Positions 21,197 through 37,080 of a stretch of DNA of 64,000 bases are shown in pieces. The translations under genes and the position numbers were made by a program. The stretch is from sequence record LC739534.1. One strand, given 5' to 3'. Under the pieces are notes generated by a model. It did no database searches and was not told the origin of the DNA. It saw only the letters and a list, made by a program, of their open reading frames with translations. This DNA comes from Escherichia phage phiWec181. The stretch's first letter is position 1. Each line of letters opens with the position of its first letter.

Positions 21197-21336
21197 CGTC
21201 CGTTACCATTCAATTGATCACGTAGCTTTTCTGCATCTCGTTTCTGTGGGAACGTGGCAACAGAGACATTGAATTCATTAACAACAGAAAAGGACTTGTC
21301 CAGGTTTTCACGGATAGTAAAAGGTTTCTTGCTCAT
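21193..21336 (-). CDS. small protein (47 aa)
   Basis: MSKKPFTIRENLDKSF...; SD GGAGGGAGA upstream; ATGA overlaps at both ends; not in ORF track. Confidence 0.4.
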   Translation of the reverse strand: MSKKPFTIRENLDKSFSVVNEFNVSVATFPQKRDAEKLRDQLNGNGR

Positions 21337-21686
21337 AATCTCCCTCCATCTTTAAGACGATTTTTAACCCAGCGTAGACGATCTGGATCTGTGTGTTGTG
21401 AAGCGTTTTCCGAATCCAGTAAATAAGCCTTTCTTCCGAACGGATAGGTTTCACATAACCCTGCTTCAATAAACTGATTATACATCTCTTTCATAGTGTT
21501 TTCGATTAAATACCAGTTACCTTCTGGAAGGTCTAAATCATACAACCAATACTCAAGATTACCACACAACCCTACAGAAGAGCTAAACACGTCTTCCATA
21601 ACAAGGCCCGTCTCGTCTCCATTTTCAGCCCAAGATAACCAAGCCTGATAAAAATCTAAAAGTAATTTACTTGATGCAATCTTCAT
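21333..21686 (-). CDS. paralog family A member
   Basis: Family pattern L..FY..WL.W...GLC...PF(N/G)...RL.WVK.R; SD AGGAGAG upstream of ATG 21686. Confidence 0.6.
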   Translation of the reverse strand: MKIASSKLLLDFYQAWLSWAENGDETGLVMEDVFSSSVGLCGNLEYWLYDLDLPEGNWYLIENTMKEMYNQFIEAGLCETYPFGRKAYLLDSENASQHTDPDRLRWVKNRLKDGGRL

Positions 21687-21688
21687 GC

Positions 21689-21874
21689 TCACTCTCCTAC
21701 ACTTTCTGGTGTGCCATCCCAAGCACCTAAGACTTCTTTCAGGTGTGCACGGGGTTCTTTAAAATACTCCTCCATTTTATCCAGAAGATCGTCTGTGTTT
21801 GGGCTGTATCCCAACATCCCACGTAAAACTCTTTCTTCTTGCAAGACCAACCATCTATGATAGCTTCGAATCAT
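21689..21874 (-). CDS. small protein (61 aa)
   Basis: SD GGAGG upstream of ATG 21874; ORF-track start 22006 lacks SD. Confidence 0.4.
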   Translation of the reverse strand: MIRSYHRWLVLQEERVLRGMLGYSPNTDDLLDKMEEYFKEPRAHLKEVLGAWDGTPESVGE

Positions 21875-22289
21875 AATATTCCTCCAAGAGTTTCTCAATT
21901 CTCTGAACGGTCTTAGTATCCCAATAAACCTTATTAAAGTCAAGTGTTCCATGTGCATTTCTTTTTGTTTCGAAGTAATAACCACCTTCCCGCTCCAAGC
22001 GATCACGGATCACTTCTATAAGATGATCCTTACCTATCTGCGTCAAACAATAATCATACTCTCCTTTTAAGAGATCTATAGAAGGTTGACGGTTATCTCC
22101 AACCTGGGAAATCTTCCAATTTACCAATGATCCTTGTATACCAACGTCTGTCTGCTTCACAGCGAAGCCTTTGGCACCCCAGCTACCCAACGTTACCACT
22201 AACAGGGCTTCTCCCGTCAGAGAGCGATTAAGCGTGTCGCTTCGGGGTTCACTTAAAGTTGAAAACCATTTAAGAATCTTTTTAAACAT
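21855..22289 (-). CDS. hypothetical protein (144 aa)
   Basis: SD GAGAGGAG upstream of ATG 22289. Confidence 0.5.
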   Translation of the reverse strand: MFKKILKWFSTLSEPRSDTLNRSLTGEALLVVTLGSWGAKGFAVKQTDVGIQGSLVNWKISQVGDNRQPSIDLLKGEYDYCLTQIGKDHLIEVIRDRLEREGGYYFETKRNAHGTLDFNKVYWDTKTVQRIEKLLEEYYDSKLS

Positions 22290-22309
22290 TATATGCTCCT
22301 CTCGTTCAA

Positions 22310-22344
22310 CATGCACAAACAATAACACCCTCCAAAGAGGGTGT
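22310..22344 (-). terminator. putative rho-independent terminator
   Basis: ACACCCTC-TTTG-GAGGGTGT hairpin followed by T-rich run on minus strand. Confidence 0.45.
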
Positions 22345-22350
22345 CAATGA

Positions 22351-22560
22351 TTAATCGATCACAAAAAACGTAGCGTTCAAACGTCTGAATGTCGCAGGGC
22401 TATATCCATGATCACACTCTTCAATGAACTGATCTGTAGTCTGATCGTAACTATAATACTGATCATTTTGGAAATGGAAGGACGCACAGAACAAATCATT
22501 TCCTACAGTCCACACTGCCACAAAATTCTTACCGAACGGATAACCTTCAGCTACTTTCAT
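22351..22560 (-). CDS. hypothetical protein (69 aa)
   Basis: SD AGAGGAGGGAGA upstream of ATG 22560. Confidence 0.45.
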   Translation of the reverse strand: MKVAEGYPFGKNFVAVWTVGNDLFCASFHFQNDQYYSYDQTTDQFIEECDHGYSPATFRRLNATFFVID

Positions 22561-22571
22561 TCTCCCTCCTC

Positions 22572-22841
22572 TTACCAAGAAACATACATAGAATACACAA
22601 AATCATTGCAGTCTGTCGTAAACGTCGCACTGCAACCTTGAGATCTGAATTTATCACAAATCCCGCGTACAATCGAAGCTTGTAGTTCTTTACCTTTCGG
22701 TAGACCTAAAGCTTTTACTGGGTTCTGAATCGTCGTGCTGTAGTAACCCCCTTCTGCTGCCGTTGTAATGAGGATTTCTGCTCGTTTGATATATTCAAAG
22801 TTCACAGAGTCAGCCAAAGCGTGTAAAGAATATGCATCCAT
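22572..22841 (-). CDS. hypothetical protein (89 aa)
   Basis: SD GAGGAGG upstream. Confidence 0.5.
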   Translation of the reverse strand: MDAYSLHALADSVNFEYIKRAEILITTAAEGGYYSTTIQNPVKALGLPKGKELQASIVRGICDKFRSQGCSATFTTDCNDFVYSMYVSW

Positions 22842-22851
22842 TATAACCTCC

Positions 22852-23187
22852 TCAAGAACGATCGAGTTTCATTAAAAATACAATCATAGCTGCACGCAGT
22901 GGTTTATCGTCTTCACGGGACGGTACACCTTCTGTCTTCGCAAGCCAACCGCGAGGAAAACCATCTTCCCCTGTTACAGGGCTGATACAAATCCTATGTT
23001 TTACTATGATAGCCCAAGCATCTGCTGGATCATTGCAGTAATCATACCAAGTGTAATTGCCGTTGCAGTCATTCCCCACTGATCGTCCATCTGCATTGTG
23101 CGGATAACCTAAAGGCTTGACACCGTGGACTGCTGCAAACACACGCTTGTTGATTTCAAAATCACTCATTACTCCATATTCTGTCAT
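22852..23187 (-). CDS. hypothetical protein (111 aa)
   Basis: SD AAGGAGAAAG upstream. Confidence 0.5.
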   Translation of the reverse strand: MTEYGVMSDFEINKRVFAAVHGVKPLGYPHNADGRSVGNDCNGNYTWYDYCNDPADAWAIIVKHRICISPVTGEDGFPRGWLAKTEGVPSREDDKPLRAAMIVFLMKLDRS

Positions 23188-23513
23188 GCTTTCTCCTTAT
23201 CTTTGGATACTGGAAGGATATTGATCATAACAACCCCATCATATCCGTAGGTATCGTTGATTGTAGTTTCAACTTCACGTATGTCGGCTAAAGATGGAGG
23301 CCAATCTGTGAATTGCACATCAATATTACCTGTCCCGATAAAATTACCTTCTTCTGGTCTGTAGTTGTATACAAACACAGCATCGTAACGAAACTCCTTC
23401 TGTTTGTTACGCTTCTTAAAAGTGCGGTCTAAGGCATAGATGCTTCCTATGACACATACCGCTACAGCAACAACAACAATGTTAAAATAGAGTTCTTGTA
23501 AAATTGCGCTCAT
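23184..23513 (-). CDS. membrane-anchored protein (109 aa)
   Basis: N-terminal hydrophobic segment NIVVVAVAVCVIGSIYAL; SD AAAGGGGG upstream. Confidence 0.5.
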   Translation of the reverse strand: MSAILQELYFNIVVVAVAVCVIGSIYALDRTFKKRNKQKEFRYDAVFVYNYRPEEGNFIGTGNIDVQFTDWPPSLADIREVETTINDTYGYDGVVMINILPVSKDKEKA

Positions 23514-23515
23514 TG

Positions 23516-23845
23516 TTATTTACCCCCTTTCAGTTTTGATTTAACCCATGCCAACCGTTCTTTGTTCATATGTTGCGTGCCGTGCTCATAATCCTGCATA
23601 TAAGCTAAGTCACCAAATGGGTACAAGGTGTCTTGGAAATCTTTGAAAAGCATCTCTGCAAATGCTTCGTTAACTTCGTCAATTTCTTTTAATGAAAACC
23701 CTTGTTCCAGTAACCAGTAAGACAAAGAGTCGCAAAGCCTAACAAGTGTGCTGAAAGGTTTGACATTCTCTCTTTTCGGAGCCACTTTAGCCCAGGCTAA
23801 CCATGCCTTAAGAAATTGTTGGATAATCACTTCGTTCTTTGTCAT
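23516..23845 (-). CDS. paralog family A member
   Basis: Family A pattern (FLKAWLAW...YPFG...RLAWVKSKL); SD AGGAG upstream of ATG 23845. Confidence 0.6.
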   Translation of the reverse strand: MTKNEVIIQQFLKAWLAWAKVAPKRENVKPFSTLVRLCDSLSYWLLEQGFSLKEIDEVNEAFAEMLFKDFQDTLYPFGDLAYMQDYEHGTQHMNKERLAWVKSKLKGGK

Positions 23846-23853
23846 TTTAGCTC

Positions 23854-24528
23854 CTATTTGATGTTCAGTTTGTTGAGCAGACGTTGAACCGTATAAGGGT
23901 GCCATGTGGTACTGCCACGAACGGTTTCAATTTTCTCTTCAGTAAAGATCTCTGCAATTCGAGTCAGAGATGCTCCTGCTTTCCTCATTAACGTCACTTT
24001 ATCACGAAGCTTCTCTGCATACAAGACACTTTTATCATTTTTTCGAGGTTGTTTGTAGTCTTGACGTGATTCTTTATACTTAGGGGAAGCAGATCCTAAA
24101 AGAACTCCTTTGCTCTTAGCTACTGCCAAACCTTTTTTGATACGATCTGCCATACCGCGAACTTCCTGTTCGGCGAGAACAGATAAAAGCTGGATAACCA
24201 TCTTATCCGCATCTGGCATAATGGCGATCTTAACGTCGATCATTTCCAGCAAGATTGCTACCGAGGCGTTGTTACGACCTAAACGGTCCACTTTAGCTAC
24301 CAGGAGGGTTGCTCCGGTAGCTTTACACATCTCAACAGCCTTGACAAGTTCTTTACGTTGCTTCCAGTCACCTTTACCTGAATAGAATTCAGAAAACTCT
24401 CCGATCACTTCAGCCTCCGGCACAGACTCCAAGAAGTAACGGATATCGTTCTCCTGACTCTGCATACCATACTGGGCTTCGCCTTTCTTCTGTTTGGACA
24501 AACGGCTGTAAACAACAAACTTTTTCAT
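23854..24528 (-). CDS. serine recombinase (resolvase/invertase family)
   Basis: N-terminal VVYSRLS...Q with catalytic Ser, VDRLGR motif, C-terminal HTH-like SLTRIAEIF; SD GAGGAG 6 nt upstream of ATG 24528. Confidence 0.7.
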   Translation of the reverse strand: MKKFVVYSRLSKQKKGEAQYGMQSQENDIRYFLESVPEAEVIGEFSEFYSGKGDWKQRKELVKAVEMCKATGATLLVAKVDRLGRNNASVAILLEMIDVKIAIMPDADKMVIQLLSVLAEQEVRGMADRIKKGLAVAKSKGVLLGSASPKYKESRQDYKQPRKNDKSVLYAEKLRDKVTLMRKAGASLTRIAEIFTEEKIETVRGSTTWHPYTVQRLLNKLNIK

Positions 24529-24538
24529 GATCAACTCC

Positions 24539-24745
24539 TCAATCGTTATTAGGCTTCCATTTTACAAACTTGAAGCAGTTATTGTCAAGGAATTTATTGG
24601 CATCTTTTTCCTGTTTCCAAACGGTGCATTGTTCTTTAAGGGCTATCTGTTCATTCTGCACATCTGATACCACATCAGCAAGGAGGATCAGAAATCCCAA
24701 AAAGACCAACATCAATAACAGATTAAAGAAAGTTTGAAAACTCAT
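24539..24745 (-). CDS. small membrane protein (68 aa)
   Basis: Hydrophobic FNLLLMLVFLGFLILL; SD GGGAGG upstream of ATG 24745. Confidence 0.45.
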   Translation of the reverse strand: MSFQTFFNLLLMLVFLGFLILLADVVSDVQNEQIALKEQCTVWKQEKDANKFLDNNCFKFVKWKPNND

Positions 24746-24996
24746 GCGTCCTCCCATTTGATCCACAGAATCATTTCTTCAACGTAAACCTCTTTACCTT
24801 TGTTATTGATGAAAGTGTATTCTATGAACTCCGCTGTATACTTTTTGTTGTATTGCTCCGCTGCTGGGATCGGACACTTTGTCATACGTGTCTCAACCCA
24901 TTGACGATGAATCGTTGCCTTGTTTTTGGGGTCAAACGGGTGTAAATAGTGTGGTTCCCCACCCTGACTTTGCCCCATCTTATTTTTCTTTGCCAT
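24742..24996 (-). CDS. hypothetical protein (84 aa)
   Basis: SD GGAGGAGG upstream of ATG 24996. Confidence 0.4.
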   Translation of the reverse strand: MAKKNKMGQSQGGEPHYLHPFDPKNKATIHRQWVETRMTKCPIPAAEQYNKKYTAEFIEYTFINNKGKEVYVEEMILWIKWEDA

Positions 24997-25324
24997 GCTG
25001 CACCTCCTCCAGACGGTCATACACCCAAGCAAGACGATCGAAGTTTTTGTGTTGGGTGCCGGACTTCTTCTCAATCCAATAACAAGGAATCCAACCTGAC
25101 AGATCCCACTCGCCATCGAACGGATAGTTCCATTCTAAACCTTCCGCTTCAAACTGCTCTACCATTTCATCAGAAAGGGAAATATACAAATCTTGGTCTT
25201 CCCCGCAATACACTTCCACTGCATGACACAAACCGCAAGCTTTGATGTTTTCGTGCGGATCTTGGCCCATAGCCTGATCCAACCACCACTCATAAAACTC
25301 CAGTAAAGCTTCACTTGATCTCAT
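24980..25324 (-). CDS. paralog family A member
   Basis: Family A pattern (LLEFYEWWL...GLC...YPFDG...RLAWVYDRL); SD GGGGAGGGGAAG upstream. Confidence 0.6.
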   Translation of the reverse strand: MRSSEALLEFYEWWLDQAMGQDPHENIKACGLCHAVEVYCGEDQDLYISLSDEMVEQFEAEGLEWNYPFDGEWDLSGWIPCYWIEKKSGTQHKNFDRLAWVYDRLEEVQHGKEK

Positions 25325-25697
25325 TTTCTTCCCCTCCCCCTTTTCCAATAAGCGGCGAAGCCGCGATCATCGACTTATAGACAACTTCGGCTGTTCGGGT
25401 TAGCCCCGTCCAGTCCTTCGCTGCCTCCAACATTTCTGGGGTAGGCTCTTTCGGGACCAAGACATACCCTTCTGGGACACACATCCCACTCTCTTTCTTT
25501 TCGGCTTCTTCCGACATAACTTGCCACACTCCATAGCTGCAATTCTCGAACAAACAATAGAGTTCAGATCCTTCATCATCCACGACAATGAAACAGTTCT
25601 CATCTGCTACTTTGGCATTATAGATCCGACCTATGGTCAAATAGTCTCGGACATTAATAAACTTAGAGGCAAGAAACTTCACACGAATGTTTTTCAT
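25311..25697 (-). CDS. hypothetical protein (128 aa)
   Basis: SD CGGAG upstream. Confidence 0.5.
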   Translation of the reverse strand: MKNIRVKFLASKFINVRDYLTIGRIYNAKVADENCFIVVDDEGSELYCLFENCSYGVWQVMSEEAEKKESGMCVPEGYVLVPKEPTPEMLEAAKDWTGLTRTAEVVYKSMIAASPLIGKGGGEENEIK

Positions 25698-25933
25698 TTC
25701 TTAAACTCCGAAAAGCAACCCAAAGAGATGACCCCGCCATTATAGACGATAGCAAACTGGCACCCTGTCTTTGTGTCTGTGATGATGTAATCTAAAGCCC
25801 CAGTCATGCCAGTTTGAACAAAGCGATCCTTGGTTACAACTTTTGAGTCCGAGAAGCCGTTAACTTTCGGCACAGTGTCTGCCATAACAGTAGGAGTCAC
25901 CAGAAACAATGCGATCAGTAATGCCTTTTTCAT
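25694..25933 (-). CDS. small secreted protein (79 aa) with signal peptide
   Basis: MKKALLIALFLVTPTVMA signal-like N-terminus; SD TGGAGGG upstream. Confidence 0.5.
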   Translation of the reverse strand: MKKALLIALFLVTPTVMADTVPKVNGFSDSKVVTKDRFVQTGMTGALDYIITDTKTGCQFAIVYNGGVISLGCFSEFKK

Positions 25934-25944
25934 AAACCCTCCAG

Positions 25945-26259
25945 TTAGCCTTGAAATGAATTGCGACGACCAATACGGGCACAGCGATCACCTTCATAAG
26001 AGGTGAAATCCAGACTCACTCGGAAGCCAGGGTGGGTATCAGAGATCCCCACATTCTTCACCCACATCTCGAAACTGCCGATATGTAAGGTCATAATGTT
26101 TACATACCATTCCAGCGTCACTTCTGTGCCGTCTACGCCTGTGATGTAGAAATCACGAGCGAAATGGGTGTCGTGCTTCTGTTTCTGACGCTCATACTTA
26201 GCGATTGCACCTTTCTCAACAGCCGCTTTCAGGATCACTTCTAACTCTTCTATTTGCAT
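25945..26259 (-). CDS. hypothetical protein (104 aa)
   Basis: SD AAAGGAGAGAGA upstream. Confidence 0.5.
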   Translation of the reverse strand: MQIEELEVILKAAVEKGAIAKYERQKQKHDTHFARDFYITGVDGTEVTLEWYVNIMTLHIGSFEMWVKNVGISDTHPGFRVSLDFTSYEGDRCARIGRRNSFQG

Positions 26260-26288
26260 GTTCTCTCTCCTTTATTGTTGATGCAACC

Positions 26289-26317
26289 ACTATAATATGT
26301 CTGACACTCTCTGTCAA
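26289..26317 (-). promoter_or_regulatory. sigma70-type promoter
   Basis: Minus strand TTGACA, 17-nt spacer, TATAGT upstream of CDS 25945..26259. Confidence 0.4.
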
Positions 26318-26529
26318 ATGTTTTCTGCTTCCAGCACTACTCTTTGGATCTGCACGTCATCAATGTTTGCGAGACAATTCCCTAAAATAAGCCCTGCTCG
26401 GAAAGGGGCTTGGAACTTGGAGGAAGCCCCCACTCGAATAGAATACTCCACACCGCACATAACATAATCTACACGGTACATATTCAAGCCCATGAACATG
26501 AGTTCTTCTTCCGACTCTTCGATTTGCAT
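26314..26529 (-). CDS. hypothetical protein (71 aa)
   Basis: SD AGAGGAGA upstream. Confidence 0.45.
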   Translation of the reverse strand: MQIEESEEELMFMGLNMYRVDYVMCGVEYSIRVGASSKFQAPFRAGLILGNCLANIDDVQIQRVVLEAENI

Positions 26530-26541
26530 TTTTATCTCCTC

Positions 26542-27096
26542 TTAGTTCCAACTAATAATGATGTGTTTGATAACCCCAAAAACGCTATATTCCGCTGTTG
26601 TCAACGTTACATCTAAACCTTTTGCACGCAACATTGCGGCTACTACATTCACCCCTTCTTTCTGTTTATCCATCTCTTCGTAAGAAGAAGGGCTGTTACA
26701 CAAACCAAAACTCGAAGGTTCAAAATATTTTTGGAATTTTCCCTGTTCTGCATAATCTTCAATCTCCAGCAGAACACAGTCTACCATTTCAGTAAAATGG
26801 GAATTTGCTTGCAGTGCTTTACTACGTAGTTTATCACGTAAACTTCCCACAAACCCTTCCTGATCTTCTGTTTGCTCTACTTCACAGAAAGGATGAAGTT
26901 CAGCCCAGTCCCAAACGTCTCCCTCTAAAGCAAACGTTGTGTTGTAGTTGAAGAAGGTGCAACGTGGAAGTTCCCCGTTGAAAGAATCCTTCAGCAAAAT
27001 GTATTTCTTACCATTTGCGTGGAAGAGTTCCCCTTTGATAACCTTGCCTTTCTGGATATCGCTGTCGGTGGAACGGGTGCAGATAAACTGTTTCAT
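26542..27096 (-). CDS. hypothetical protein (184 aa), paralog family B (C-terminal domain)
   Basis: C-terminal FEPSSFGLCNSP...AMLRAKGLDV resembles CDS 33333..33635; SD GAGAGGAGAA upstream. Confidence 0.55.
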   Translation of the reverse strand: MKQFICTRSTDSDIQKGKVIKGELFHANGKKYILLKDSFNGELPRCTFFNYNTTFALEGDVWDWAELHPFCEVEQTEDQEGFVGSLRDKLRSKALQANSHFTEMVDCVLLEIEDYAEQGKFQKYFEPSSFGLCNSPSSYEEMDKQKEGVNVVAAMLRAKGLDVTLTTAEYSVFGVIKHIIISWN

Positions 27097-27150
27097 GATT
27101 TTCTCCTCTCTGTTTCGATGAGATGATTATGACAAAGACAGATCCTTCTG

Positions 27151-27477
27151 TCAACCAATTATTTCTTCTGCTATACGTTCTTTTACCCAGTTCACACGAT
27201 CCACATTCAAATGACAACGGCTTCTTTCCGCTTCTAAGGTGTACTTTCCAAAATTACTGTTGAAAGGCAACACCATAACCAAATCTTTGCGGTAGAACTG
27301 CTCATGCATTTCATCCAGTACAGGTTCGTATCGTTCGCTTTCCCCCATATCGTAAAAATCATAGAGGTTCGAGCACAAACCTGTGCAACGGGTGAACGGT
27401 TCACCTTCAGGAGCACCAGCTTCCAACCATGCCAAATACGTGCGGTAAAATGTTAATAGTTCTTCGCTCATTTCCAC
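27151..27477 (-). CDS. paralog family A member
   Basis: Family A pattern (LLTFYRTYLAWL...GLC...LPFNSN...HLNVDRVNWVKERI); SD AAGGAGAG upstream. Confidence 0.6.
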   Translation of the reverse strand: MEMSEELLTFYRTYLAWLEAGAPEGEPFTRCTGLCSNLYDFYDMGESERYEPVLDEMHEQFYRKDLVMVLPFNSNFGKYTLEAERSRCHLNVDRVNWVKERIAEEIIG

Positions 27478-27680: not shown

Positions 27681-27682
27681 GA

Positions 27683-27910
27683 TTATTCCTCCATCTTAAA
27701 CCATTGAGGGAATACTTTACGGAAGACACGAGTTGCTTCCAAAAGGAATTCCAATTCTTTTTCCCGATCTGCGTTCCAACCGTGTACTTTAACATTGATC
27801 GCCAGTGCATCAGCGCGCTGACTCAATGCTTGGCAAATCGGATCGCGCAACACTACCGCATCATAAAACTGACAAACAGCTTCAAGTTCATACCAATTAT
27901 AAGCAGCCAT
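27683..27910 (-). CDS. hypothetical protein (75 aa)
   Basis: SD AGAGGAGAA upstream. Confidence 0.45.
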   Translation of the reverse strand: MAAYNWYELEAVCQFYDAVVLRDPICQALSQRADALAINVKVHGWNADREKELEFLLEATRVFRKVFPQWFKMEE

Positions 27911-28236
27911 TATTCATTCTCCTCTGCAATACGATCTTTAACCCAATTAATCCTGTCCACGTTCAGGTGACAGGCATCTGCATCTGACTCTAAAACATAT
28001 GCATCGTAGTTCTCATTGAAAGGGAGTTCTTGACTCAACCCTTTATAGTGGAACTGTGCGTGCATCTCATCTGACAAGGTTATTATAATGAGATTGAAGC
28101 CATCCCTGTGCACATAATCGAACAAGTTGGCACACAAACCCACACTTGGCAGAAACGGTCTGCCATAAGGAGCACCATTTTCAATCCATGCCAGATACTT
28201 TTTGTAAAACTTCATCAACTCTTCACTTGTTTTCAT
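27910..28236 (-). CDS. paralog family A member
   Basis: Closest relative of 27151..27477 (…GLCANL…HLNVDRINWVKDRIAEE); SD GAGGTGG upstream. Confidence 0.6.
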   Translation of the reverse strand: MKTSEELMKFYKKYLAWIENGAPYGRPFLPSVGLCANLFDYVHRDGFNLIIITLSDEMHAQFHYKGLSQELPFNENYDAYVLESDADACHLNVDRINWVKDRIAEENE

Positions 28237-28474: not shown

Positions 28475-28475
28475 G

Positions 28476-28820: not shown

Positions 28821-28848
28821 TTTTCTCTCCTTATTGTCTTGATGTGGT

Positions 28849-30109: not shown

Positions 30110-30113
30110 CCGA

Positions 30114-30560: not shown

Positions 30561-30640
30561 ACACCCTCCTATTCGTACATTAAGAAGCCCAAAATAATAA
30601 TCAGGGCAGCGAAAATAATAATCTCTATCATATCACATTC

Positions 30641-30853: not shown

Positions 30854-30856
30854 TTC

Positions 30857-31078: not shown

Positions 31079-31269
31079 GATGGTTCTCCTTTATAAAGTA
31101 AACCTCTTAGTTCGCATTCTGCCACCAATAGACGGTTGGCTTGATTGTCCATAGACACGTCTATCTCCACACTCCAAGCATTAATATACACTTCGTTGAT
31201 CTTTGCGTCAAGCATTTGTGCAACTAAAGCTACGGCTCCAGCATATTCAAGTTTGATCTCTATAATCAT
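31075..31269 (-). CDS. hypothetical protein (64 aa)
   Basis: ORF with start overlapping upstream stop; no clear SD. Confidence 0.4.
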   Translation of the reverse strand: MIIEIKLEYAGAVALVAQMLDAKINEVYINAWSVEIDVSMDNQANRLLVAECELRGLLYKGEPS

Positions 31270-31553
31270 TTAAGATGATCCCTTACCCATTGGATACGGA
31301 CAGCATTGAGATGAGAACCATCTTCCTTGTATTCTTTCGCGTAATCATCCCAATCCTTATTGAACGGGAGTTCTGGGTCCAACCCCGCAGCTTCAAACTG
31401 TTTTGACATTTCATACAGCAAATCATCATCACAATAACCGAAGAAATAGAGATTAGTACATAAACCCCATTCACGGCGGAAAGGATTACCGTCTGGCGCT
31501 CCCGCGTCCACCCAATCTGCGTAAGCTTGATAGAACTCTCGTAATGTTTTCAT
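31266..31553 (-). CDS. paralog family A member
   Basis: Family A pattern (LREFYQAYADWV...GLC...LPFNKD...RIQWVRDHL); ATG 31553 overlaps stop of upstream small ORF. Confidence 0.6.
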   Translation of the reverse strand: MKTLREFYQAYADWVDAGAPDGNPFRREWGLCTNLYFFGYCDDDLLYEMSKQFEAAGLDPELPFNKDWDDYAKEYKEDGSHLNAVRIQWVRDHLK

Positions 31554-31708
31554 AACCACCCCTTATCTTGATAACCTTTAGAAAACCCTTCTTCCCACTC
31601 TTGAAACTGTTCAGGATGTTTATTGGGATCGTAAGGATTGTGGCGGCAAAACATGCCGAATTTATAACCCTGTGCGTAGCCTTTATCGAATGCGTTCTTA
31701 CTCTCCAT
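31550..31708 (-). CDS. small protein (52 aa) with KGY repeats
   Basis: MESKNAFDKGYAQGYKFG...SKGYQDKGWL; strong SD AGAGGAGAGAA upstream; not in ORF track. Confidence 0.4.
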   Translation of the reverse strand: MESKNAFDKGYAQGYKFGMFCRHNPYDPNKHPEQFQEWEEGFSKGYQDKGWL

Positions 31709-31720
31709 TGTTCTCTCCTC

Positions 31721-31993
31721 TTATTCAACGTTCCAGAAAACACCCCGTTTATCTGTAATGTCTATACGATACTCCTCCCACATCTTAGTTACAAGAGGTC
31801 TTTTCACATAACCGTGAAAATAAACTTCAGAATGCACCCCGTAAGCTGTGTAATTGTCAACAGTCCCTTCTACCTTGAAGATCACCATGTCTCCACCTAA
31901 AAATCTTTCAAAAACCAAGGTGAAACAGTCGAACTTAACAACGTCTCCCTCGAAGAGGGAGATATCTTTCACCTTACAGAAATGTCCGATCAT
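31721..31993 (-). CDS. hypothetical protein (90 aa)
   Basis: SD AAGGAGAGAA upstream. Confidence 0.5.
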   Translation of the reverse strand: MIGHFCKVKDISLFEGDVVKFDCFTLVFERFLGGDMVIFKVEGTVDNYTAYGVHSEVYFHGYVKRPLVTKMWEEYRIDITDKRGVFWNVE

Positions 31994-32002
31994 TTTCTCT
32001 CC

Positions 32003-32194
32003 TTAATACACATCACCTACAAACCAGATTTCTGGATCGCCATACTGATCCTTCTCGTAAGATTTGTAGACACTACAGCAATATTTCAAAACACCGTCCA
32101 CAAGGATTGTTGATCTTTCTTCTGGAATCTCTGTGATCTCCCCTTTGCGGGTTTCGAAGATGGTATCACCCTTTTCAATTAGTCGGATTTTCAT
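32003..32194 (-). CDS. hypothetical protein (63 aa)
   Basis: SD GGGAGG upstream. Confidence 0.5.
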   Translation of the reverse strand: MKIRLIEKGDTIFETRKGEITEIPEERSTILVDGVLKYCCSVYKSYEKDQYGDPEIWFVGDVY

Positions 32195-32195
32195 A

Positions 32196-32393
32196 TCATA
32201 CCTCCCTCAATGCGATTAGTGCGTTCACCAGATTATCAACACCTTGAGCATCCAGGGCAATAACATCAAAGTTAAACCCTGTATCAGTTGGGACTTTACG
32301 TGTTATGGTGTAATAATCCTCTGCATGACGTTCAACATATGCGTATGGGTAACTGGTGTTCGGATCATGTTTTACGCGAATAGATGTTTTCAT
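32196..32393 (-). CDS. hypothetical protein (65 aa)
   Basis: SD AAGAGGAGAA upstream. Confidence 0.5.
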   Translation of the reverse strand: MKTSIRVKHDPNTSYPYAYVERHAEDYYTITRKVPTDTGFNFDVIALDAQGVDNLVNALIALREV

Positions 32394-32863
32394 GTTTTGT
32401 TCTCCTCTTTAGTTGCAACACGGAACTTATTAGCTTCTCTCACCTGGAACATGAAGTCTTTCTTCTTCATAATCCCGATGGACATTTCATCCAGTTCTTC
32501 TGGATGGATCTGGAGATTACGGCGATCGGACAGGAACCAAGATTTCTCCCACCAGAAGCGTTGATCCTCCTCCTTGTGGTGCTTGTATTCCTCTTTTTCT
32601 TTTTCTGTGAGGATCTTGAAGCGATTCTTTCCTTCCCAACGCATTGCTGTGTTAAAAGGAATACCGTTATCCCCATTATACACTGCGGAAGTAGGAAGGC
32701 AATAGCCAGTTTCTGCGTCGATCATTTGGTAGTGAAATTCACATTCCAGTTCAACGTACTCTAAATCCCCATAAAAATCACTGATCAAGAAAGCAATGTA
32801 AGTTTCACCATGTTCGGGAACAAATTCTTGCTTTGTCAACATCTCCAGTTTCAAACCTGCCAT
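32390..32863 (-). CDS. hypothetical protein (157 aa)
   Basis: SD AAAGGAGAAAG upstream. Confidence 0.55.
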   Translation of the reverse strand: MAGLKLEMLTKQEFVPEHGETYIAFLISDFYGDLEYVELECEFHYQMIDAETGYCLPTSAVYNGDNGIPFNTAMRWEGKNRFKILTEKEKEEYKHHKEEDQRFWWEKSWFLSDRRNLQIHPEELDEMSIGIMKKKDFMFQVREANKFRVATKEENKT

Positions 32864-32875
32864 TGCTTTCTCCTT

Positions 32876-33109
32876 TTAGTCGAACCAGTTATATTCAGAA
32901 GGGTAACGCGCATAGTTTGGCTTATACCCCAGCCTTTTCATCTTAACAGACATACGAGTGAAGCCAAAGGTTTTTTTGCCCTTAGACATAAACTTCTTCC
33001 CACTCTTCATTGGCTTCTTAGGGTCTTTGATCGCCTGGTTTAACGCTCGCGCAAGCCACAAAGTGTATGCGCTCGGTGCTTGGTTAACTTTCATCTTGTT
33101 ACCCTTCAT
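32876..33109 (-). CDS. small basic protein (77 aa)
   Basis: Lys-rich (KDPKKPMKSGKKFMSKGKK); SD AAGAGGAGA upstream. Confidence 0.5.
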   Translation of the reverse strand: MKGNKMKVNQAPSAYTLWLARALNQAIKDPKKPMKSGKKFMSKGKKTFGFTRMSVKMKRLGYKPNYARYPSEYNWFD

Positions 33110-33120
33110 ACGATCTCCTC

Positions 33121-33333
33121 TTATAAAATTTCAAGTTCTTCGAGTGTTTCTTTCAGGGAAACTGGCAAATCACACTCCACATCCAGCATCGAAACCAACC
33201 AAGAGGTGGCTTCGGCTAACTTCTGGTAATCATCATACAACACATAACCCCCTTCGTCAACCTCTACGATGCAACGATAAGATGCAAAAGGGTTTTTGCT
33301 CATTTCTTCAATGTCATAACGTTCAACAACCAT
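33121..33333 (-). CDS. small acidic protein (70 aa), paralog family D
   Basis: SD AGAGGTGA upstream of ATG 33333; related to CDS 30114..30560. Confidence 0.45.
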   Translation of the reverse strand: MVVERYDIEEMSKNPFASYRCIVEVDEGGYVLYDDYQKLAEATSWLVSMLDVECDLPVSLKETLEELEIL

Positions 33334-33635
33334 TATTTCACCTCTGACCAATCAACAGTAATACATTGATAAGCTTGATGATTTATGTCCAATTCAATAT
33401 AAACCACAAGCCCACGCTCGCGGAGTGCTGTTACCACCATATACATTAACTCGCGCTGTCTGGCGATCCCATCTTGGGAAAGAGGACGATTACAGAAGCC
33501 AAAATCAGAGGGCGTGAAATCCCGTTGGTAATTTCCCGCCCGTGCTTCTGAAAAACACGTCTCAATAACCTCTTCAATAGGAAAACCGATGGAAGCTTCT
33601 TTGGCAATACTGCGTAACTGTTCGGTCAAATTCAT
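33333..33635 (-). CDS. hypothetical protein (100 aa), paralog family B
   Basis: FTPSDFGFCNRP...TALRERGLVV resembles C-terminus of CDS 26542..27096; SD GAGAGGAGAA upstream. Confidence 0.5.
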   Translation of the reverse strand: MNLTEQLRSIAKEASIGFPIEEVIETCFSEARAGNYQRDFTPSDFGFCNRPLSQDGIARQRELMYMVVTALRERGLVVYIELDINHQAYQCITVDWSEVK

Positions 33636-33700
33636 TTCATTTCTCCTCTCGTCTGTGTATGCAAAGATTATCTACCAACGTGATCCTTATGTCAAGCTAT

Positions 33701-34213
33701 TTATTCAAAATAAACTTTAACTTGTGCCGTGCTGTAGCGATTGTAAATCTCGACCACGGCTTTAGCATTATCTTCTTTATAGGATTCTGCCAGATCTTCC
33801 GCATCTCGGATATTTCCGGCAACACCTACGAGAACAAGATCCACCATTACAAGATATTTTTTATCTTCTGGACTCTCTTGAGAAGGCTCTTGCACTGGTT
33901 CTTCCTTTGGTTCTGGTGGCAAACCAACCTCTGCCTCAACATAAGAGTCAAACCAAGTGATATCGTTAAAATGCTTTAACTCGTGTTTGGACAGCAGCAT
34001 ACCACAATCAACGAAAGCACCTGCATCAGCTTCAAAGACATGCCCTTCAAATGTTTGGAACTTAACCACATCCCCTTTTTCTGTTGTCTCCAACACCAGG
34101 AAGTGTTTTGGCCCCAGCAGATCTGAAATCTTTCGGTTCAGATTGACAGCTTCACGGAACGCATTGTACTCTTTTGTATTTTTGAATTTATAAGAATGCC
34201 CTTGAATAAACAT
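33701..34213 (-). CDS. hypothetical protein (170 aa), paralog family E
   Basis: SD AAGAGGAGA upstream; tandem duplicate of next gene. Confidence 0.55.
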   Translation of the reverse strand: MFIQGHSYKFKNTKEYNAFREAVNLNRKISDLLGPKHFLVLETTEKGDVVKFQTFEGHVFEADAGAFVDCGMLLSKHELKHFNDITWFDSYVEAEVGLPPEPKEEPVQEPSQESPEDKKYLVMVDLVLVGVAGNIRDAEDLAESYKEDNAKAVVEIYNRYSTAQVKVYFE

Positions 34214-34225
34214 AGTAGTCTCCTC

Positions 34226-34744
34226 TTAGTCAAATATCACATTACTTACGAGTTTCGCTGTGCTACGCAGAGTATAAATCTCCACAAGCTTCCCTGGACT
34301 CTCTTTCTTCGCTTTCGTGGCTCTTTCTTGTGCCTCTGAAAAAGATGATACAGTATGCACTACTACGTAGTCAACAATAACTGCAAACTTTTTAGGCACA
34401 ATATCGGCATCAGGACGATCGTCGTGCGCAGAAACATCCTTACCTGGCTGTGGTGCCAGCGGCGGCAAGCCTGTCATTAACAGTGCACCTCCATCAAAGA
34501 AATATCCGATTTCATCGTGTGCAATAAGGAAGCGATCCATTTGAGCATCACCTACTCCCTGATCCCAGAACACTTTCCTATCTTCTACGAAGATGATAAG
34601 GGACAGGACATTCCCATGAACATCCGTGTTAACTGGTTGGAACCAGTGATCCCCAATCGCTTCAGCCAATTGTTTAGAGATTGATTGAAACAACTCTTGG
34701 TACGTGCCTTGTCTGAAACGATATACATTATTTGTTTTAAACAT
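34226..34744 (-). CDS. hypothetical protein (172 aa), paralog family E
   Basis: SD AAGAGGAGA upstream; C-terminal KKFAVIVDYVVVHT...VEIY resembles previous gene. Confidence 0.55.
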   Translation of the reverse strand: MFKTNNVYRFRQGTYQELFQSISKQLAEAIGDHWFQPVNTDVHGNVLSLIIFVEDRKVFWDQGVGDAQMDRFLIAHDEIGYFFDGGALLMTGLPPLAPQPGKDVSAHDDRPDADIVPKKFAVIVDYVVVHTVSSFSEAQERATKAKKESPGKLVEIYTLRSTAKLVSNVIFD

Positions 34745-34766
34745 TAGTGTCTCCTCTTGTATTAAA

Positions 34767-35225
34767 TTATTGTTCTACTTCACGCAGCCACGCTAAAGCC
34801 TCTTCTGGGGATTTATCGAAGTCGTTGAGCAGTTCCTGCTCCAACTCCTCTTTCATTTCATTCAGCACTTGTAGTTGACGTGCCTTTTTCCACAAGGCTA
34901 CACGATAATCAACACCTTGTGGTGCTTCTTCTGCCACTTTTACATTACCTGTCGGGCAGCGAGGAAGATAGTCTTCAATATCTTCCAAGGCACGGCGATA
35001 ATTGGGGTCCATGTAGTTCACACGAACACGATTACATTCTAACAAAGTGGCACGGAACACTTCATAACGTGTTTCGGATAGAATGTGTTTCACACAGACA
35101 GCACCAGTATCTTCTGAAATTACGCTATACACTTCCAGTAGGCTGGAGTTTCTCTTGACATAATCTGTAACGCATTGCACATATGCTCCCAATATTGTGG
35201 AAGCTCTCGCTGGTTTTTCGCTCAT
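34767..35225 (-). CDS. hypothetical protein (152 aa)
   Basis: SD GGGGAGG upstream. Confidence 0.55.
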   Translation of the reverse strand: MSEKPARASTILGAYVQCVTDYVKRNSSLLEVYSVISEDTGAVCVKHILSETRYEVFRATLLECNRVRVNYMDPNYRRALEDIEDYLPRCPTGNVKVAEEAPQGVDYRVALWKKARQLQVLNEMKEELEQELLNDFDKSPEEALAWLREVEQ

Positions 35226-35461
35226 TTTCTACCTCCCCATAATGCCACCATTTTATTAAAGATGGAAGCGCGTCGTGCACGAGATGCTAACATACGATTG
35301 GCTTCTTCGTAGCCATAGAACAAACGATCTGTCAATACCAACGCCAGTGTCTTCTCTTGCAGAGACTGGCAATTATGTTCAGGACGACAGTCGTGCCCTG
35401 CATCGAAGTACAGATTGTTCAGATAGTTGTTTGCTCTCTCATTCTGCTTTGCAGTGATCAC
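35222..35461 (-). CDS. hypothetical protein (79 aa), GTG start
   Basis: ORF-track start is GTG preceded by AAGGAGGG; start uncertain. Confidence 0.4.
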   Translation of the reverse strand: MITAKQNERANNYLNNLYFDAGHDCRPEHNCQSLQEKTLALVLTDRLFYGYEEANRMLASRARRASIFNKMVALWGGRK

Positions 35462-35470
35462 GATCCCTCC

Positions 35471-35701
35471 TTAATGAACAATTTCATATTCGTGAGGAAG
35501 GAAAACATAATCTTCCCCTTCACCTGCATCTTCTTCATCCCAGAAGAAACCTGGTATCTCAATCATCTTCGAAAAGCGCACATGCGCCAACCCACTATAC
35601 CCTATCTGTGCATTCAGCACAACGGGTAACTCTGCACCAATCAGACCTACATACCCGCAAGCGGTTTCAATACGAATTTTCATACGTTTTATGTTATGCA
35701 T
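35471..35701 (-). CDS. small protein (76 aa), paralog family C
   Basis: Related to CDS 30857..31078; weak SD. Confidence 0.45.
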   Translation of the reverse strand: MHNIKRMKIRIETACGYVGLIGAELPVVLNAQIGYSGLAHVRFSKMIEIPGFFWDEEDAGEGEDYVFLPHEYEIVH

Positions 35702-35903
35702 CTTTCATATTCTCCACGAAGTGACGAGCAACAGGATTCCCGTAGAAATATTCATTGATGAAATCGATCACACAGGTTTCACTGCCTGTCACAACGGACG
35801 GTGCGAAGTTTCGGAACTGCACGAGTACACGACTTGCGTTAGCAAGGGCGTTCACACGATCAGTATTAGCTAAATACAAGGATACAGTTTTCATATTCGA
35901 CAT
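35694..35903 (-). CDS. hypothetical protein (69 aa)
   Basis: SD TGAGGAGA upstream. Confidence 0.5.
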   Translation of the reverse strand: MSNMKTVSLYLANTDRVNALANASRVLVQFRNFAPSVVTGSETCVIDFINEYFYGNPVARHFVENMKDA

Positions 35904-35974
35904 TTCAATCTCCTCATTGGCTATCTGTTATGCGCGGTATTGCGCCTCTCATGCAAACAAGTATACAGACATTT

Positions 35975-36343
35975 TTATTCAATGCAAGCATTATTTGCAT
36001 CTTCGATGCGATCTTTCACCCATTGAAGACGTAACGTGTTGGTATGACACGCCAAGTCTATACACTCTGAAAGGTAATCCATGCAATCTGCATTGAACGG
36101 AAGATTGTAGTCCAGTTTTGCACATGTAAATTGTTTCCTCATTTCGTATTTCAAACTATCCAACAAACGATCACGCCATCTTTTATCTTCTTCTCTAATT
36201 ACCTCACCAACAAAATCATCTACATAATCTACCAGACAACCACACAAGCCACTCGTTGTGCGATTCATTGCCGGATGGTTGGCAATCCATGCTTTATAGA
36301 ATCGTATTAATGTTGCACTGCTCAACGGAATGTTACTTTTCAT
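35975..36343 (-). CDS. paralog family A member
   Basis: Family A pattern (LIRFYKAWIANH...GLCGCL...LPFNAD...RLQWVKDRI); SD GAAGGAGG upstream of ATG 36343. Confidence 0.6.
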   Translation of the reverse strand: MKSNIPLSSATLIRFYKAWIANHPAMNRTTSGLCGCLVDYVDDFVGEVIREEDKRWRDRLLDSLKYEMRKQFTCAKLDYNLPFNADCMDYLSECIDLACHTNTLRLQWVKDRIEDANNACIE

Positions 36344-36698
36344 TATTGCCTCCTTCACAATCCTGGATACGATCTTCTACCCATTGCACACGCAGTCGGT
36401 TGAGATGACATTTTCTGTTTTCACATTCTTCCTCGTAGTCGAAGAAGTTGGTATTGAAAGGTGTGGTTTTAGACAACCCTGCATACATAAACTGTACCAG
36501 CATTTCATCAGCTAAAGCTTCACGCATCTCCCAAAACTGATCCACATCGGCACCATGTATCGGACACAATACGTCCCATGCAAAATTGCCTAAACATACG
36601 CACAAGCCATTCGCTGTGTTCACCAACTCACTACGGTGAGCCATCCAATTCTTATAGAACATCAGAAGAGTATCACTACTCAAGGGAATATTTTTCAT
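36333..36698 (-). CDS. paralog family A member
   Basis: Family A pattern; N-terminus MKNIPLSSDTLLMFYKNWM; SD AAAGGAG upstream. Confidence 0.6.
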   Translation of the reverse strand: MKNIPLSSDTLLMFYKNWMAHRSELVNTANGLCVCLGNFAWDVLCPIHGADVDQFWEMREALADEMLVQFMYAGLSKTTPFNTNFFDYEEECENRKCHLNRLRVQWVEDRIQDCEGGNNEK

Positions 36699-36699
36699 A

Positions 36700-37080
36700 T
36701 CAGGCTCCTTTACGATTATGGAAACAATCTTTCACTCGCTCTTGCACCCACTCTACACGAAGCTTGTTTTCATGCGCTCTGTTGTGGTTATGCTCTTGCA
36801 CATAGTCTTCGTAGTTCACATTAAAGGGAACACTGACAGACAATCCTGCACAACGAAATTGTTTCTTCATTTCTTTTAATGTCGCATCACTTAGGGCACA
36901 AAGCTGATTTGCCTGTTCCTCACTGAAGTTACTGTCCCACATCTCATCCCAGATAAAACTATCCAAGCATACACATAACCCATGCCTTGTGCGCTCTTTA
37001 GTATGATGATCAGCAAGCCAACTTTCATAGAAAGCTAACAACACCGGACTACTCAACGGAACATTTTTACTCTCTTGCAT
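36700..37080 (-). CDS. paralog family A member
   Basis: Family A pattern; SD AGAGAGGAGA upstream of ATG 37080; ORF-track start 37167 lacks SD. Confidence 0.6.
   Translation of the reverse strand: MQESKNVPLSSPVLLAFYESWLADHHTKERTRHGLCVCLDSFIWDEMWDSNFSEEQANQLCALSDATLKEMKKQFRCAGLSVSVPFNVNYEDYVQEHNHNRAHENKLRVEWVQERVKDCFHNRKGA

What the first reader, a model, noticed from the sequence alone, without database searches (positions are those of the whole stretch)
21333..37080. Nine-member paralogous protein family dispersed through a small-gene block
Nine ORFs of ~96-126 aa (starts 21686, 23845, 25324, 27477, 28236, 31553, 36343, 36698, 37080) share a clear pattern: N-terminal L..FY..WL.W, central GLC, LPF(N/G), and C-terminal H.N..R(L/I).WV(K/E).R. 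The last three are tandem. I do not recognise the family. So many diverged copies in one phage suggests diversifying selection, as seen for host-range or anti-defence determinants.
Basis: seen in the sequence. Interest (0 to 1): 0.7.

Follow-up and report, generated by a model that had tools for sequence, protein, structure and literature searches.

The report
Nine-copy uncharacterised early phage protein family
A virulent E. coli phage carries nine diverged copies of a small five-helix protein. The family occurs in about 2,000 phage lineages, always among early accessory genes, and has no known function, Pfam family or solved structure, so it is real phage "dark matter" whose role was not resolved here.

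Summary
Nine minus-strand genes between 21333 and 37080 are true paralogs. Leave-one-out HMM scores are 47-115 bits, against at most 14 bits for shuffled copies, and there are exactly nine in the window.

The family is large (1,971 clusters at 50% identity) and effectively confined to phages. It includes N4 gp3, phi92 gp010, early genes of Autographiviridae and nin-region genes of lambdoid prophages.

Each copy has an invariant core (FY, GLC, QF, PFN, Y, HxNxxRxxWV). The helix 2-helix 3 hairpin, loop 1 and C-tail vary.

Orthologs are under purifying selection (omega 0.22-0.30, against 0.13-0.14 for neighbours), so gene-wide diversifying selection is not supported. The repertoire does vary between relatives, from 7 to 10 copies.

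The block is driven by near-consensus sigma-70 promoters. Most likely these are early host-directed binding proteins (takeover or counter-defence) built on one scaffold with different targets. That reading is inferred, not shown.

The parts
21333..21686 (-). copy c1, 117 aa, pI 4.5
   Evidence: HMM 134.6 bits. phrog_2510 E 1.3e-24. Ortholog dN/dS 0.14-0.16. SD GGAGAG before the ATG.
23516..23845 (-). copy c2, 109 aa. The most divergent copy (RLC instead of GLC; pI 6.7). Lies directly downstream of the serine recombinase gene.
   Evidence: HMM 112.4 bits. phrog_2510 E 4.2e-20. Leave-one-out score 46.7 bits.
24980..25324 (-). copy c3, 114 aa, pI 4.35
   Evidence: HMM 122.2 bits. phrog_2510 E 1.9e-22. 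dN/dS 0.14-0.36.
27151..27471 (-). copy c4, 106 aa (108 aa if the GTG at 27477 is used)
   Evidence: HMM 135.6 bits. phrog_2510 E 7.6e-31. 54% identical to c5. The ATG at 27471 has AAGGAG upstream.
27910..28236 (-). copy c5, 108 aa. This is the protein modelled in the first structure prediction.
   Evidence: HMM 144.8 bits. AF2 pLDDT 93.9, pTM 0.86, five helices.
31266..31553 (-). copy c6, 95 aa. The shortest copy, with a minimal helix 2-helix 3 hairpin.
   Evidence: HMM 122.1 bits. dN/dS 0.02 against PsgM04F and phiWec188.
35975..36343 (-). copy c7, 122 aa. Third gene of the tandem trio, Cys-rich (7 Cys, GLCGC).
   Evidence: HMM 128.5 bits. Overlaps c8 by 11 nt. Extra cysteines at HMM positions 38, 69, 89 and 94.
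36333..36698 (-). copy c8, 121 aa. Second gene of the tandem trio.
   Evidence: HMM 133.4 bits. Absent from phiWec188, which keeps only two genes of the trio.
36700..37080 (-). copy c9, 126 aa. First gene of the tandem trio and first gene after the 1.5-kb ORF-free stretch.
   Evidence: HMM 130.6 bits. AF2 pLDDT 91.3 with the same helix order and lengthened helices 2 and 3. SD GAGAGGAG before the ATG.
33667..33695 (-). near-consensus sigma-70 promoter (TTGACA-17-GATAAT) in an intergenic gap of the block
   Evidence: One of six sites matching at least 11 of 12 positions on the coding strand of 16000-39500. The others start at 39119, 27154, 26317, 24588 and 20124. Expected 0.34 sites; 0 of 200 shuffles reach six.
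27126..27154 (-). near-consensus sigma-70 promoter (TTGACA-17-CATAAT with TG) immediately after the stop codon of c4

Best explanation
The nine genes are functional paralogs of a very large, uncharacterised protein family that is effectively confined to phages (PHROG 2510; includes N4 gp3 and phi92 gp010).

Each gene encodes a small, mostly acidic, cytoplasmic five-helix domain. The core is nearly invariant: F-Y in helix 1, G-L-C at the start of helix 2, Q-F in helix 3, a P-F-N loop, Y in helix 4, and H-x-N-x-x-R-x-x-W-V entering helix 5. Three parts vary: loop 1, a helix 2-helix 3 hairpin of different lengths, and the C-terminal tail.

The genes are probably transcribed by host sigma-70 RNA polymerase soon after infection, as part of a block of about 60 small accessory genes.

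The most likely mode of action is stoichiometric binding of host factors, either host takeover or counter-defence. On this reading the conserved core is a common scaffold or docking site, and the variable hairpin, loop and tail give each paralog its own target. That would explain why a large phage keeps 7-10 old, diverged copies, each under purifying selection, and why relatives swap copies in and out.

Shown: homology, fold confidence, distribution, gene position, promoter enrichment, and the selection regime.
Inferred: early expression in this particular phage, action by binding rather than catalysis, and a host rather than a phage target.
For: - Real genes under constraint. Ortholog dN/dS is 0.22-0.30 pooled, and all nine have an SD plus ATG.
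- One fold with a variable insert. AF2 models of c5 (pLDDT 93.9) and c9 (pLDDT 91.3) have the same helix order. The extra roughly 18 residues of c9 are taken up by longer helices 2 and 3.
- Conserved core, variable surface. Across 217 domains C36 is 99% conserved, P77, F78 and R100 are 100%, and W103 is 95%. Between orthologs, 0.5% of core positions and 1.4% of helix 2 positions differ. The figures are 11.5% for loop 1, 15% for the variable region, 12% for helix 3 and 20% for the C-tail.
- Early or accessory position in independent phage lineages:
  - N4 gp3 lies between the early genes gp1/gp2 and gp15/16 (PMC4496689).
  - JG068 gp5 and phiAp1 gp09 lie just after the annotated host promoters and before primase/helicase.
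  - N4-like Achromobacter, Klebsiella and Rhizobium phages carry it 1-6 kb from the left end.
  - In E. coli lambdoid/Rac-like prophages it sits between the replication genes and Q, next to Ead/Ea22, DUF551 and hok.
- In this window, six near-consensus sigma-70 promoters lie on the coding strand, against 0.34 expected.
- Confined to phages. There are 259 phage records, but only 1 of 72,556 plasmids.
- Mostly acidic. Seven of the nine copies have pI 4.35-5.4, the other two 5.95 and 6.7, which argues against DNA binding.
- The repertoire turns over among close relatives: 7-10 copies with different membership.
- There is no recurrent neighbouring partner gene.
- Natural two- and three-domain fusions exist (P0042, P0043, P0051). 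This suggests the domain works as a repeated module.
Against: - No member has any experimental data. Literature and accession searches found nothing.
- Near-total invariance of a Cys and an Arg, plus strongly conserved Asn, His, Glu and Gln, across about 30%-identical sequences is more than a pure scaffold usually needs. It could mark an active site or a ligand pocket.
- Early timing in this phage is inferred from promoters and from gene position in other phages, not from RNA data.
- No gene-wide positive selection was detected, which weakens an arms-race picture.
- I could not inspect model coordinates, so whether the conserved polar residues are buried or exposed is unknown.
Confidence: 0.45

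Rival explanations
1. The domain is a small enzyme. Its active site would be formed by the invariant Cys at the N-terminus of helix 2, together with the His/Asn/Arg cluster that precedes helix 5. The paralogs would modify or cleave different host or phage substrates, as the T4 Alt/ModA/ModB paralogs do.
For: - C36 is 99% conserved, R100 100%, N97 89% (with D a further 8%), H95 81%, and E88 74% (with D a further 12%), across 217 diverse domains.
- A Cys at a helix N-terminus is a classic nucleophile position (established knowledge).
- Ortholog substitutions avoid these positions: 2 differences in 438 comparisons.
Against: - At 95-126 aa it is very small for an enzyme, and it has no nucleotide- or cofactor-binding motif.
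- His95 is replaced by Tyr or Trp in about 13% of domains while the Cys is kept.
- No Pfam hit in 117 members.
Confidence: 0.2
2. The family is a small-molecule or metal binder. One possibility is a 'sponge' for immune signalling nucleotides, like Acb2, Acb4 or Tad. Another is a Zn or redox module. Paralogs would be tuned to different ligands.
For: - Small early proteins with a conserved polar cluster, and tandem multi-domain versions exist.
- The trio subfamily adds cysteines at HMM positions 38, 69, 89 and 94, next to C36 and H95. In c9 one of these is replaced by His. This would suit a metal site.
- N4-like phages are known to encode sponges (Acb4; bioRxiv 10.64898/2026.08.10.743972).
Against: - No structural similarity to any solved protein in a PDB copy running to April 2026.
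- The Acb4 gene of Bas69/N4 is a different gene. The published primers bracket bas69_0023, and it is unrelated to this family (hhalign probability 0.5%).
- Outside the trio subfamily only one Cys and one His are conserved, too few for a Zn site.
- The co-occurrence of the extra cysteines may simply reflect shared ancestry.
Confidence: 0.12
3. The proteins serve the phage itself, for example as small transcription or replication regulators or as assembly helpers, rather than acting on the host.
For: - The genes lie near replication and regulatory genes in lambdoid prophages and in N4.
Against: - Seven of the nine copies are acidic (pI 4.35-5.4).
- Copy number and membership vary among near-identical phages.
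- The family occurs in unrelated phages that share no replication or transcription machinery (T7-like, N4-like, lambdoid, large myoviruses).
Confidence: 0.1
4. The similarity is compositional, or the ORFs are decaying duplicates with no function.
For: None was found.
Against: - Leave-one-out HMM scores are 47-115 bits, against at most 14 bits for shuffles.
- dN/dS is well below 1.
- Orthologs are intact in five phages.
- The AF2 models are confident.
- There are 1,971 family clusters.
Confidence: 0.01

Closest known systems
PHROG 2510, with the weaker relatives phrog_6418, phrog_27059 and phrog_2176 (all 'unknown function')
   Same: All nine copies match phrog_2510 over their full length (E 2e-18 to 8e-31). 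This is the same family.
   Different: The PHROG carries no function, structure or name. Its profile (219 positions) also covers C-terminal extensions that the window copies lack.
Escherichia phage N4 gp3 (Bas69 bas69_0078) and phi92 gp010
   Same: They are homologs (tblastn 5e-5 and 2e-5; hhalign probability 99.4% for bas69_0078). N4 gp3 lies inside the early region, among genes transcribed by the virion RNA polymerase (PMC4496689).
   Different: N4 has a single copy. No function has been reported for gp3.
Accessory modules of the lambdoid nin / exo-xis regions (Ead/Ea22, DUF551, NinX and others)
   Same: The genomic niche is the same. In E. coli prophages the domain sits between the replication genes and Q, and it is fused to DUF551 or other C-terminal modules. 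The window block also contains a P22 NinX homolog.
   Different: There is no sequence relationship to those families, and they too are mostly of unknown function.
Small helical early anti-host or anti-defence proteins (T4 AsiA, T7 Ocr, Acb2, Acb4)
   Same: They share size, acidity, early expression and restriction to phages. This is what the family most plausibly works like.
Multi-copy accessory gene families of large viruses (for example T4 Alt/ModA/ModB; poxvirus ankyrin and Bcl-2-like families). This comparison rests on general knowledge.
   Same: Many diverged paralogs of one scaffold in one genome, with a repertoire that differs between close relatives.
   Different: This is an analogy only. 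There is no homology, and no target is known here.

Membership tests
PHROG 2510 (phage protein family, unknown function) | Significant full-length match to the family HMM | tested here: met
   All nine copies match at E 2.2e-18 to 7.6e-31, covering profile positions about 4-110.
Any Pfam-A or NCBIfam family | A match at or above the curated gathering score | tested here: not met
   No hit with E below 0.03 for the nine copies. Among 117 diverse members no family is hit by more than one sequence.
Any protein of solved structure | Sequence-profile or fold similarity to a PDB chain | tested here: not met
Acb4 / Acb2-type nucleotide sponges | Homology to the Acb4 gene of N4/Bas69, or to solved sponge folds | tested here: not met
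   The published acb4 primers map to bas69_0023. hhalign of the family profile against that protein gives probability 0.5%. There is no PDB fold match.
Acb4 / Acb2-type nucleotide sponges | Binding of cyclic oligonucleotides | not testable with these tools
   This needs ITC or gel-shift assays with purified protein.
Cys-His hydrolases / transferases (papain-like, deamidase-like) | An invariant catalytic Cys and His on a recognisable fold | tested here: not met
   Cys is 99% conserved, but His only 81% (Tyr 10%, Trp 3%). The fold is all-helical and matches no such enzyme.
HEPN RNases | An R-x(4-6)-H motif on a four-helix up-down bundle | tested here: not met
Zinc-binding modules (ZAS-like, treble clef and others) | Three or four conserved Cys/His ligands | tested here: inconclusive
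   Family-wide only C36 and H95 are conserved. The trio-type subfamily adds cysteines at positions 38, 69, 89 and 94, and c9 has His at position 89. Metal content cannot be tested here.
Winged-helix / MarR-type DNA-binding proteins | A wHTH fold and a basic DNA-binding surface | tested here: not met
Early (host-RNAP-transcribed) accessory genes | Transcription early in infection | tested here: inconclusive
   Six near-consensus sigma-70 promoters lie on the coding strand, against 0.34 expected. Homologs sit in early regions of N4 and of Autographiviridae. No RNA data exist for this phage.

The most novel reading that the evidence does not exclude
The family is a previously unrecognised fold class of phage immune antagonists or host-modifying effectors. 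The invariant Cys/Arg/His-Asn site engages a common host machine or ligand. The variable helix 2-helix 3 'finger' selects different targets. On this reading the 7-10-copy arrays in Stephanstirmvirinae, and the 2-3-domain fusions in other phages, are an arsenal against several host defences.
Probability: 0.3. Interest if true: 0.75.

Novelty: new member of a known kind. Interest (0 to 1): 0.45.

Why it matters
The family has about 2,000 clusters at 50% identity. It is found in phages of alpha-, beta- and gamma-proteobacteria, including the model phage N4, and always in early or accessory positions. It has a confident predicted fold unlike any solved structure, and it is absent from Pfam.

Families of this kind have repeatedly turned out to be host-takeover or anti-defence factors. 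A nine-copy array in a therapeutic-type E. coli phage offers a ready comparative and genetic handle: natural gain and loss among relatives, and a single-copy homolog in genetically tractable N4.

If the conserved Cys/Arg site proves catalytic or ligand-binding, it would define a new biochemical activity. At present, however, this is a well-delimited unknown, not a demonstrated new mechanism.

Tried and rejected
1. Pfam, NCBIfam and PDB sequence searches gave nothing. This held both for the nine copies and for a 117-member profile.
2. Fold searches of the pLDDT-94 model:
   - BFVD returned only uncharacterised phage homologs.
   - AFDB50 was unavailable.
3. Pfam scans of longer family members, looking for informative fusion partners, found none. 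The only named fusion partner is DUF551, itself of unknown function.
4. The idea that the family is the Acb4 sponge of N4/Bas69 was rejected. Primer mapping and hhalign show Acb4 is a different, unrelated gene.
5. Plasmid leading-region (anti-restriction-like) distribution was rejected, with 1 hit in 72,556 plasmids.
6. Recent in-genome amplification or mobile cassettes were rejected. No DNA repeats remain beyond weak coding remnants and SD motifs, and paralogs are as distant from each other as from homologs elsewhere.
7. Gene-wide positive selection was rejected.
8. No conserved neighbouring partner gene was found.
The wide context survey therefore relied on the phage collection and on E. coli prophage contigs.
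10. Literature searches by accession number, gene name, PHROG id and phage group found no functional study.
11. Rfam and tRNA scans of the window were empty.


Full report
**Identity of the window.** Positions 21000-37500 are 100% identical to Escherichia phages phiWec179 and phiWec186 (Stephanstirmvirinae, Phapecoctavirus-like). They are 93-94% identical to phiWec188/190 and to the record called 'Pseudomonas phage PsgM04F', and 84-89% identical in patches to phAPEC8, ESCO13 and about 100 other coliphages. Every gene in the region is annotated 'hypothetical protein'. PMC12695924 describes phiWec179/181/186 as a new genus and does not mention this family.

**Checking the observation.** The nine ORFs are present on the minus strand at the coordinates given.
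- They align over their whole length with 12 invariant columns.
- All 36 pairs are detectable by BLASTP (E 2e-40 to 2e-3).
- Leave-one-out HMMs recover each omitted copy at 47-115 bits. Two hundred composition-matched shuffles of each copy never exceed 14 bits.
- An HMM of the nine copies finds exactly those nine in the six-frame translation of the whole window.
- In an all-against-all comparison of the 64 annotated block proteins they form the only large family. The others are four pairs.
- Each copy has a GGAG-type ribosome-binding site 5-10 nt before an ATG.

**What the family is, by sequence.** All nine copies match PHROG 2510 (E 1e-18 to 1e-31), and more weakly phrog_6418, 27059 and 2176. 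All four are 'unknown function'. There is no Pfam or NCBIfam match. When 117 diverse members are scanned, no Pfam family is hit by more than one of them. Profile searches of all PDB sequences find nothing.

An exhaustive HMM search of 1.84 billion representative proteins finds 1,971 clusters at E of 1e-3 or better, and 992 at 1e-10 or better.
- Most are single domains of 95-130 aa.
- Some carry two or three tandem domains (P0042, P0043 and P0051; the last is the 344-aa type seen in Burkholderia phage BcepSaruman).
- A few are fused to regions with no Pfam match.

**Distribution.** In GenBank phages the family occurs in 259 records. These include:
- Stephanstirmvirinae, Vequintavirinae and FelixO1-like myoviruses;
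- N4 (gp3) and N4-like phages of Achromobacter, Klebsiella, Erwinia and Rhizobium;
- Autographiviridae of Burkholderia, Ralstonia and Rhizobium;
- Delftia PhiW-14, and jumbo phages of Xanthomonas and Burkholderia (also seen).

All listed hosts are Proteobacteria. Only one of 72,556 plasmids carries the family. A prophage form occurs in 29 of 5,426 complete E. coli genomes. Every source name is 'hypothetical protein', 'gp3' or, for some fusions, 'DUF551 domain-containing'.

**Structure.** An AlphaFold2 model of copy c5, built on a 46-sequence alignment, is very confident (pLDDT 93.9, pTM 0.86). It has five helices: residues 5-19, 34-43, 48-64, 77-85 and 93-107.

A second model, of the longer tandem copy c9, is equally confident (pLDDT 91.3). 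It has the same order of elements, and its extra residues are absorbed by longer helices 2 and 3. The variable region is therefore a helical hairpin of different lengths.

**Conservation pattern.** Over 217 domains the near-universal residues, in HMM numbering, are F11, Y12, G34-L35-C36 (Cys 99%), F67, P77-F78 (100%), Y85, H95 (81%, with Tyr 10% and Trp 3%), N97, R100 (100%) and W103-V104.

Between orthologs in five related phages, amino-acid differences avoid the core (2 of 438 comparisons) and helix 2 (1.4%). They accumulate in loop 1 (11.5%), the helix 2-helix 3 variable segment (15%), helix 3 (12%) and the C-tail (20%).

Seven of the nine copies have pI 4.35-5.4; the other two are at 5.95 and 6.7. 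The tandem-trio subfamily carries extra cysteines (a C-x-C at the start of helix 2, and Cys at HMM positions 69, 89 and 94). This might form a metal site, but their co-occurrence may only reflect common descent.

**Evolution.** The homologous block holds 9 copies in phiWec179, 10 in PsgM04F and 7 each in phAPEC8 and ESCO13. phiWec188 also has 9, but a different set: one extra copy, and only two genes of the trio.

Nei-Gojobori dN/dS for orthologs with at least 75% identity, pooled per comparison, is 0.22, 0.22, 0.28 and 0.30 for family genes. For the other genes of the block it is 0.14, 0.13, 0.14 and 0.13. Every copy is therefore maintained by purifying selection, somewhat relaxed relative to its neighbours. 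There is no gene-wide signal of positive selection.

The copies are old. For c1, c2, c3 and c6 the closest non-orthologous homolog elsewhere (44%, 36%, 54% and 59% identity) is closer than any paralog in the genome. No nucleotide-level repeats survive between copies.

**Genomic setting and timing.** The family lies in a run of about 60 small minus-strand genes. Among the 51 other genes scanned, only four have any Pfam match: a serine recombinase, DUF7202, P22 NinX and DUF2158.

The coding strand of 16000-39500 carries six sigma-70 promoter matches of at least 11 of 12 positions. Five are in or at intergenic gaps. Dinucleotide shuffles give 0.34 on average, and none of 200 reaches six. This points to transcription by unmodified host polymerase.

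Homologs are positioned in early or delayed-early accessory regions in independent lineages:
- N4 gp3 sits between gp1/gp2 and the RNAPII genes gp15/16, all known early genes (PMC4496689).
- JG068 gp5 and phiAp1 gp09 follow the annotated host promoters and precede primase/helicase.
- RHEph09 gp03 and many N4-like phages carry it within 1-6 kb of the left end.
- In E. coli lambdoid/Rac-like prophages it lies between the replication genes and Q, beside Ead/Ea22, DUF551, DUF4014 and hok.

No recurrent partner gene accompanies it.

**Interpretation.** The best-supported reading is an early, cytoplasmic, host-directed binding protein built on a conserved five-helix scaffold. Paralogs would be specialised through loop 1, the helix 2-helix 3 hairpin, the helix 3 surface and the C-tail (confidence about 0.45).

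The strongest rival is that the invariant Cys/Arg, together with His/Asn, forms an active site (about 0.2). A ligand- or metal-binding site, including a sponge-like role, is a further possibility (about 0.12). A sponge identity with the known N4/Bas69 Acb4 was excluded specifically. The published acb4 primers bracket bas69_0023. That protein is unrelated to the family (hhalign probability 0.5%), whereas the gp3 homolog bas69_0078 is a clear member (probability 99.4%). A phage-internal regulatory role is unlikely, given the acidity of most copies, the variable copy number and the spread across unrelated phage types. No paper in the searchable library assigns a function to any member.

**Verdict.** The family is catalogued (PHROG 2510) but uncharacterised. 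It is large, effectively confined to phages, structurally unmatched and consistently early or accessory. The claim of diversifying selection is not supported at the gene level. Repertoire turnover and localised surface variability are supported. An anti-defence or host-takeover function is plausible but untested. Interest is moderate: this is a well-defined target for experiment rather than a demonstrated novelty.

Noticed in passing
window 23854-24528 (-): A serine recombinase / DNA invertase gene (Pfam Resolvase 6e-17; phrog_125 'DNA invertase') sits inside the early small-gene block of a virulent myovirus, immediately upstream of family copy c2. It is conserved in phAPEC8 ('putative site-specific recombinase'), ESCO13 ('resolvase') and PsgM04F. 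I did not look for an invertible segment or target sites.
   Followed up: partly
window 37081-38590: An AT-rich stretch of about 1.5 kb without annotated ORFs, directly upstream of the tandem trio. It is bounded by a strong terminator hairpin at 38612-38590 (-) and contains several inverted repeats (for example 37908-37922 with 38020-38034, 15/15 complementary). There is no tRNA and no Rfam hit. The same gap exists in phAPEC8. It could hold early promoters, an origin or an unannotated RNA.
   Followed up: partly
window 19456-19909; 26542-27096 with 33333-33635; 30857-31078 with 35471-35701; 33701-34213 with 34226-34744: Four further two-member paralog pairs in the same block (BLASTP E 7e-7 to 1e-11). 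The last pair is tandem. All are of unknown function.
   Followed up: no
window 16000-39500, minus strand: Six near-consensus sigma-70 promoters (TTGACA, 17-18 nt spacer, TATAAT-like; at least 11 of 12 positions) start at 39119, 33695, 27154, 26317, 24588 and 20124. Dinucleotide shuffles give 0.34 on average, and the plus strand has only one. They divide the block into several host-RNAP transcription units.
   Followed up: yes
L002 (OR584014.1) and records listed: 'Pseudomonas phage PsgM04F' is 93% identical over 16.5 kb to this E. coli phage. Records named 'Campylobacter phage C3' and 'Acinetobacter phage vB_AbaM_ABPW7' are also phAPEC8-like. The host labels of these records look doubtful.
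   Followed up: no
window from about 37986 onward: The window is identical to LC739533 (phiWec179) up to about 37985. After that it shows many mismatches at a fixed offset, most likely from an indel. The source may therefore be phiWec186/181 or a close variant rather than phiWec179 itself.
   Followed up: partly
P0042, P0043, P0051 (metagenomic/phage proteins); P0070, P0099: Natural fusions of two or three copies of the domain in one polypeptide. The N-terminal domain of P0043 is 59% identical to c6. P0070 and P0099 have two copies that flank an unknown domain of about 130 aa. This suggests the domain can act as a repeated module or oligomer.
   Followed up: partly
L015 34892-35263 (Bas69 bas69_0023): The published acb4 (anti-CBASS 4 sponge) primers of Bas69 bracket this 123-aa gene, next to the virion RNA polymerase gene. 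It is annotated only as 'hypothetical protein' in MZ501049.
   Followed up: yes
window, whole (composition profile): GC skew flips sign at about 16 kb, about 38 kb and about 58 kb. The flip at about 16 kb coincides with the start of the minus-strand small-gene block. No tRNA genes occur anywhere in the 64-kb window, although this phage group is reported to carry more than 10.
   Followed up: no
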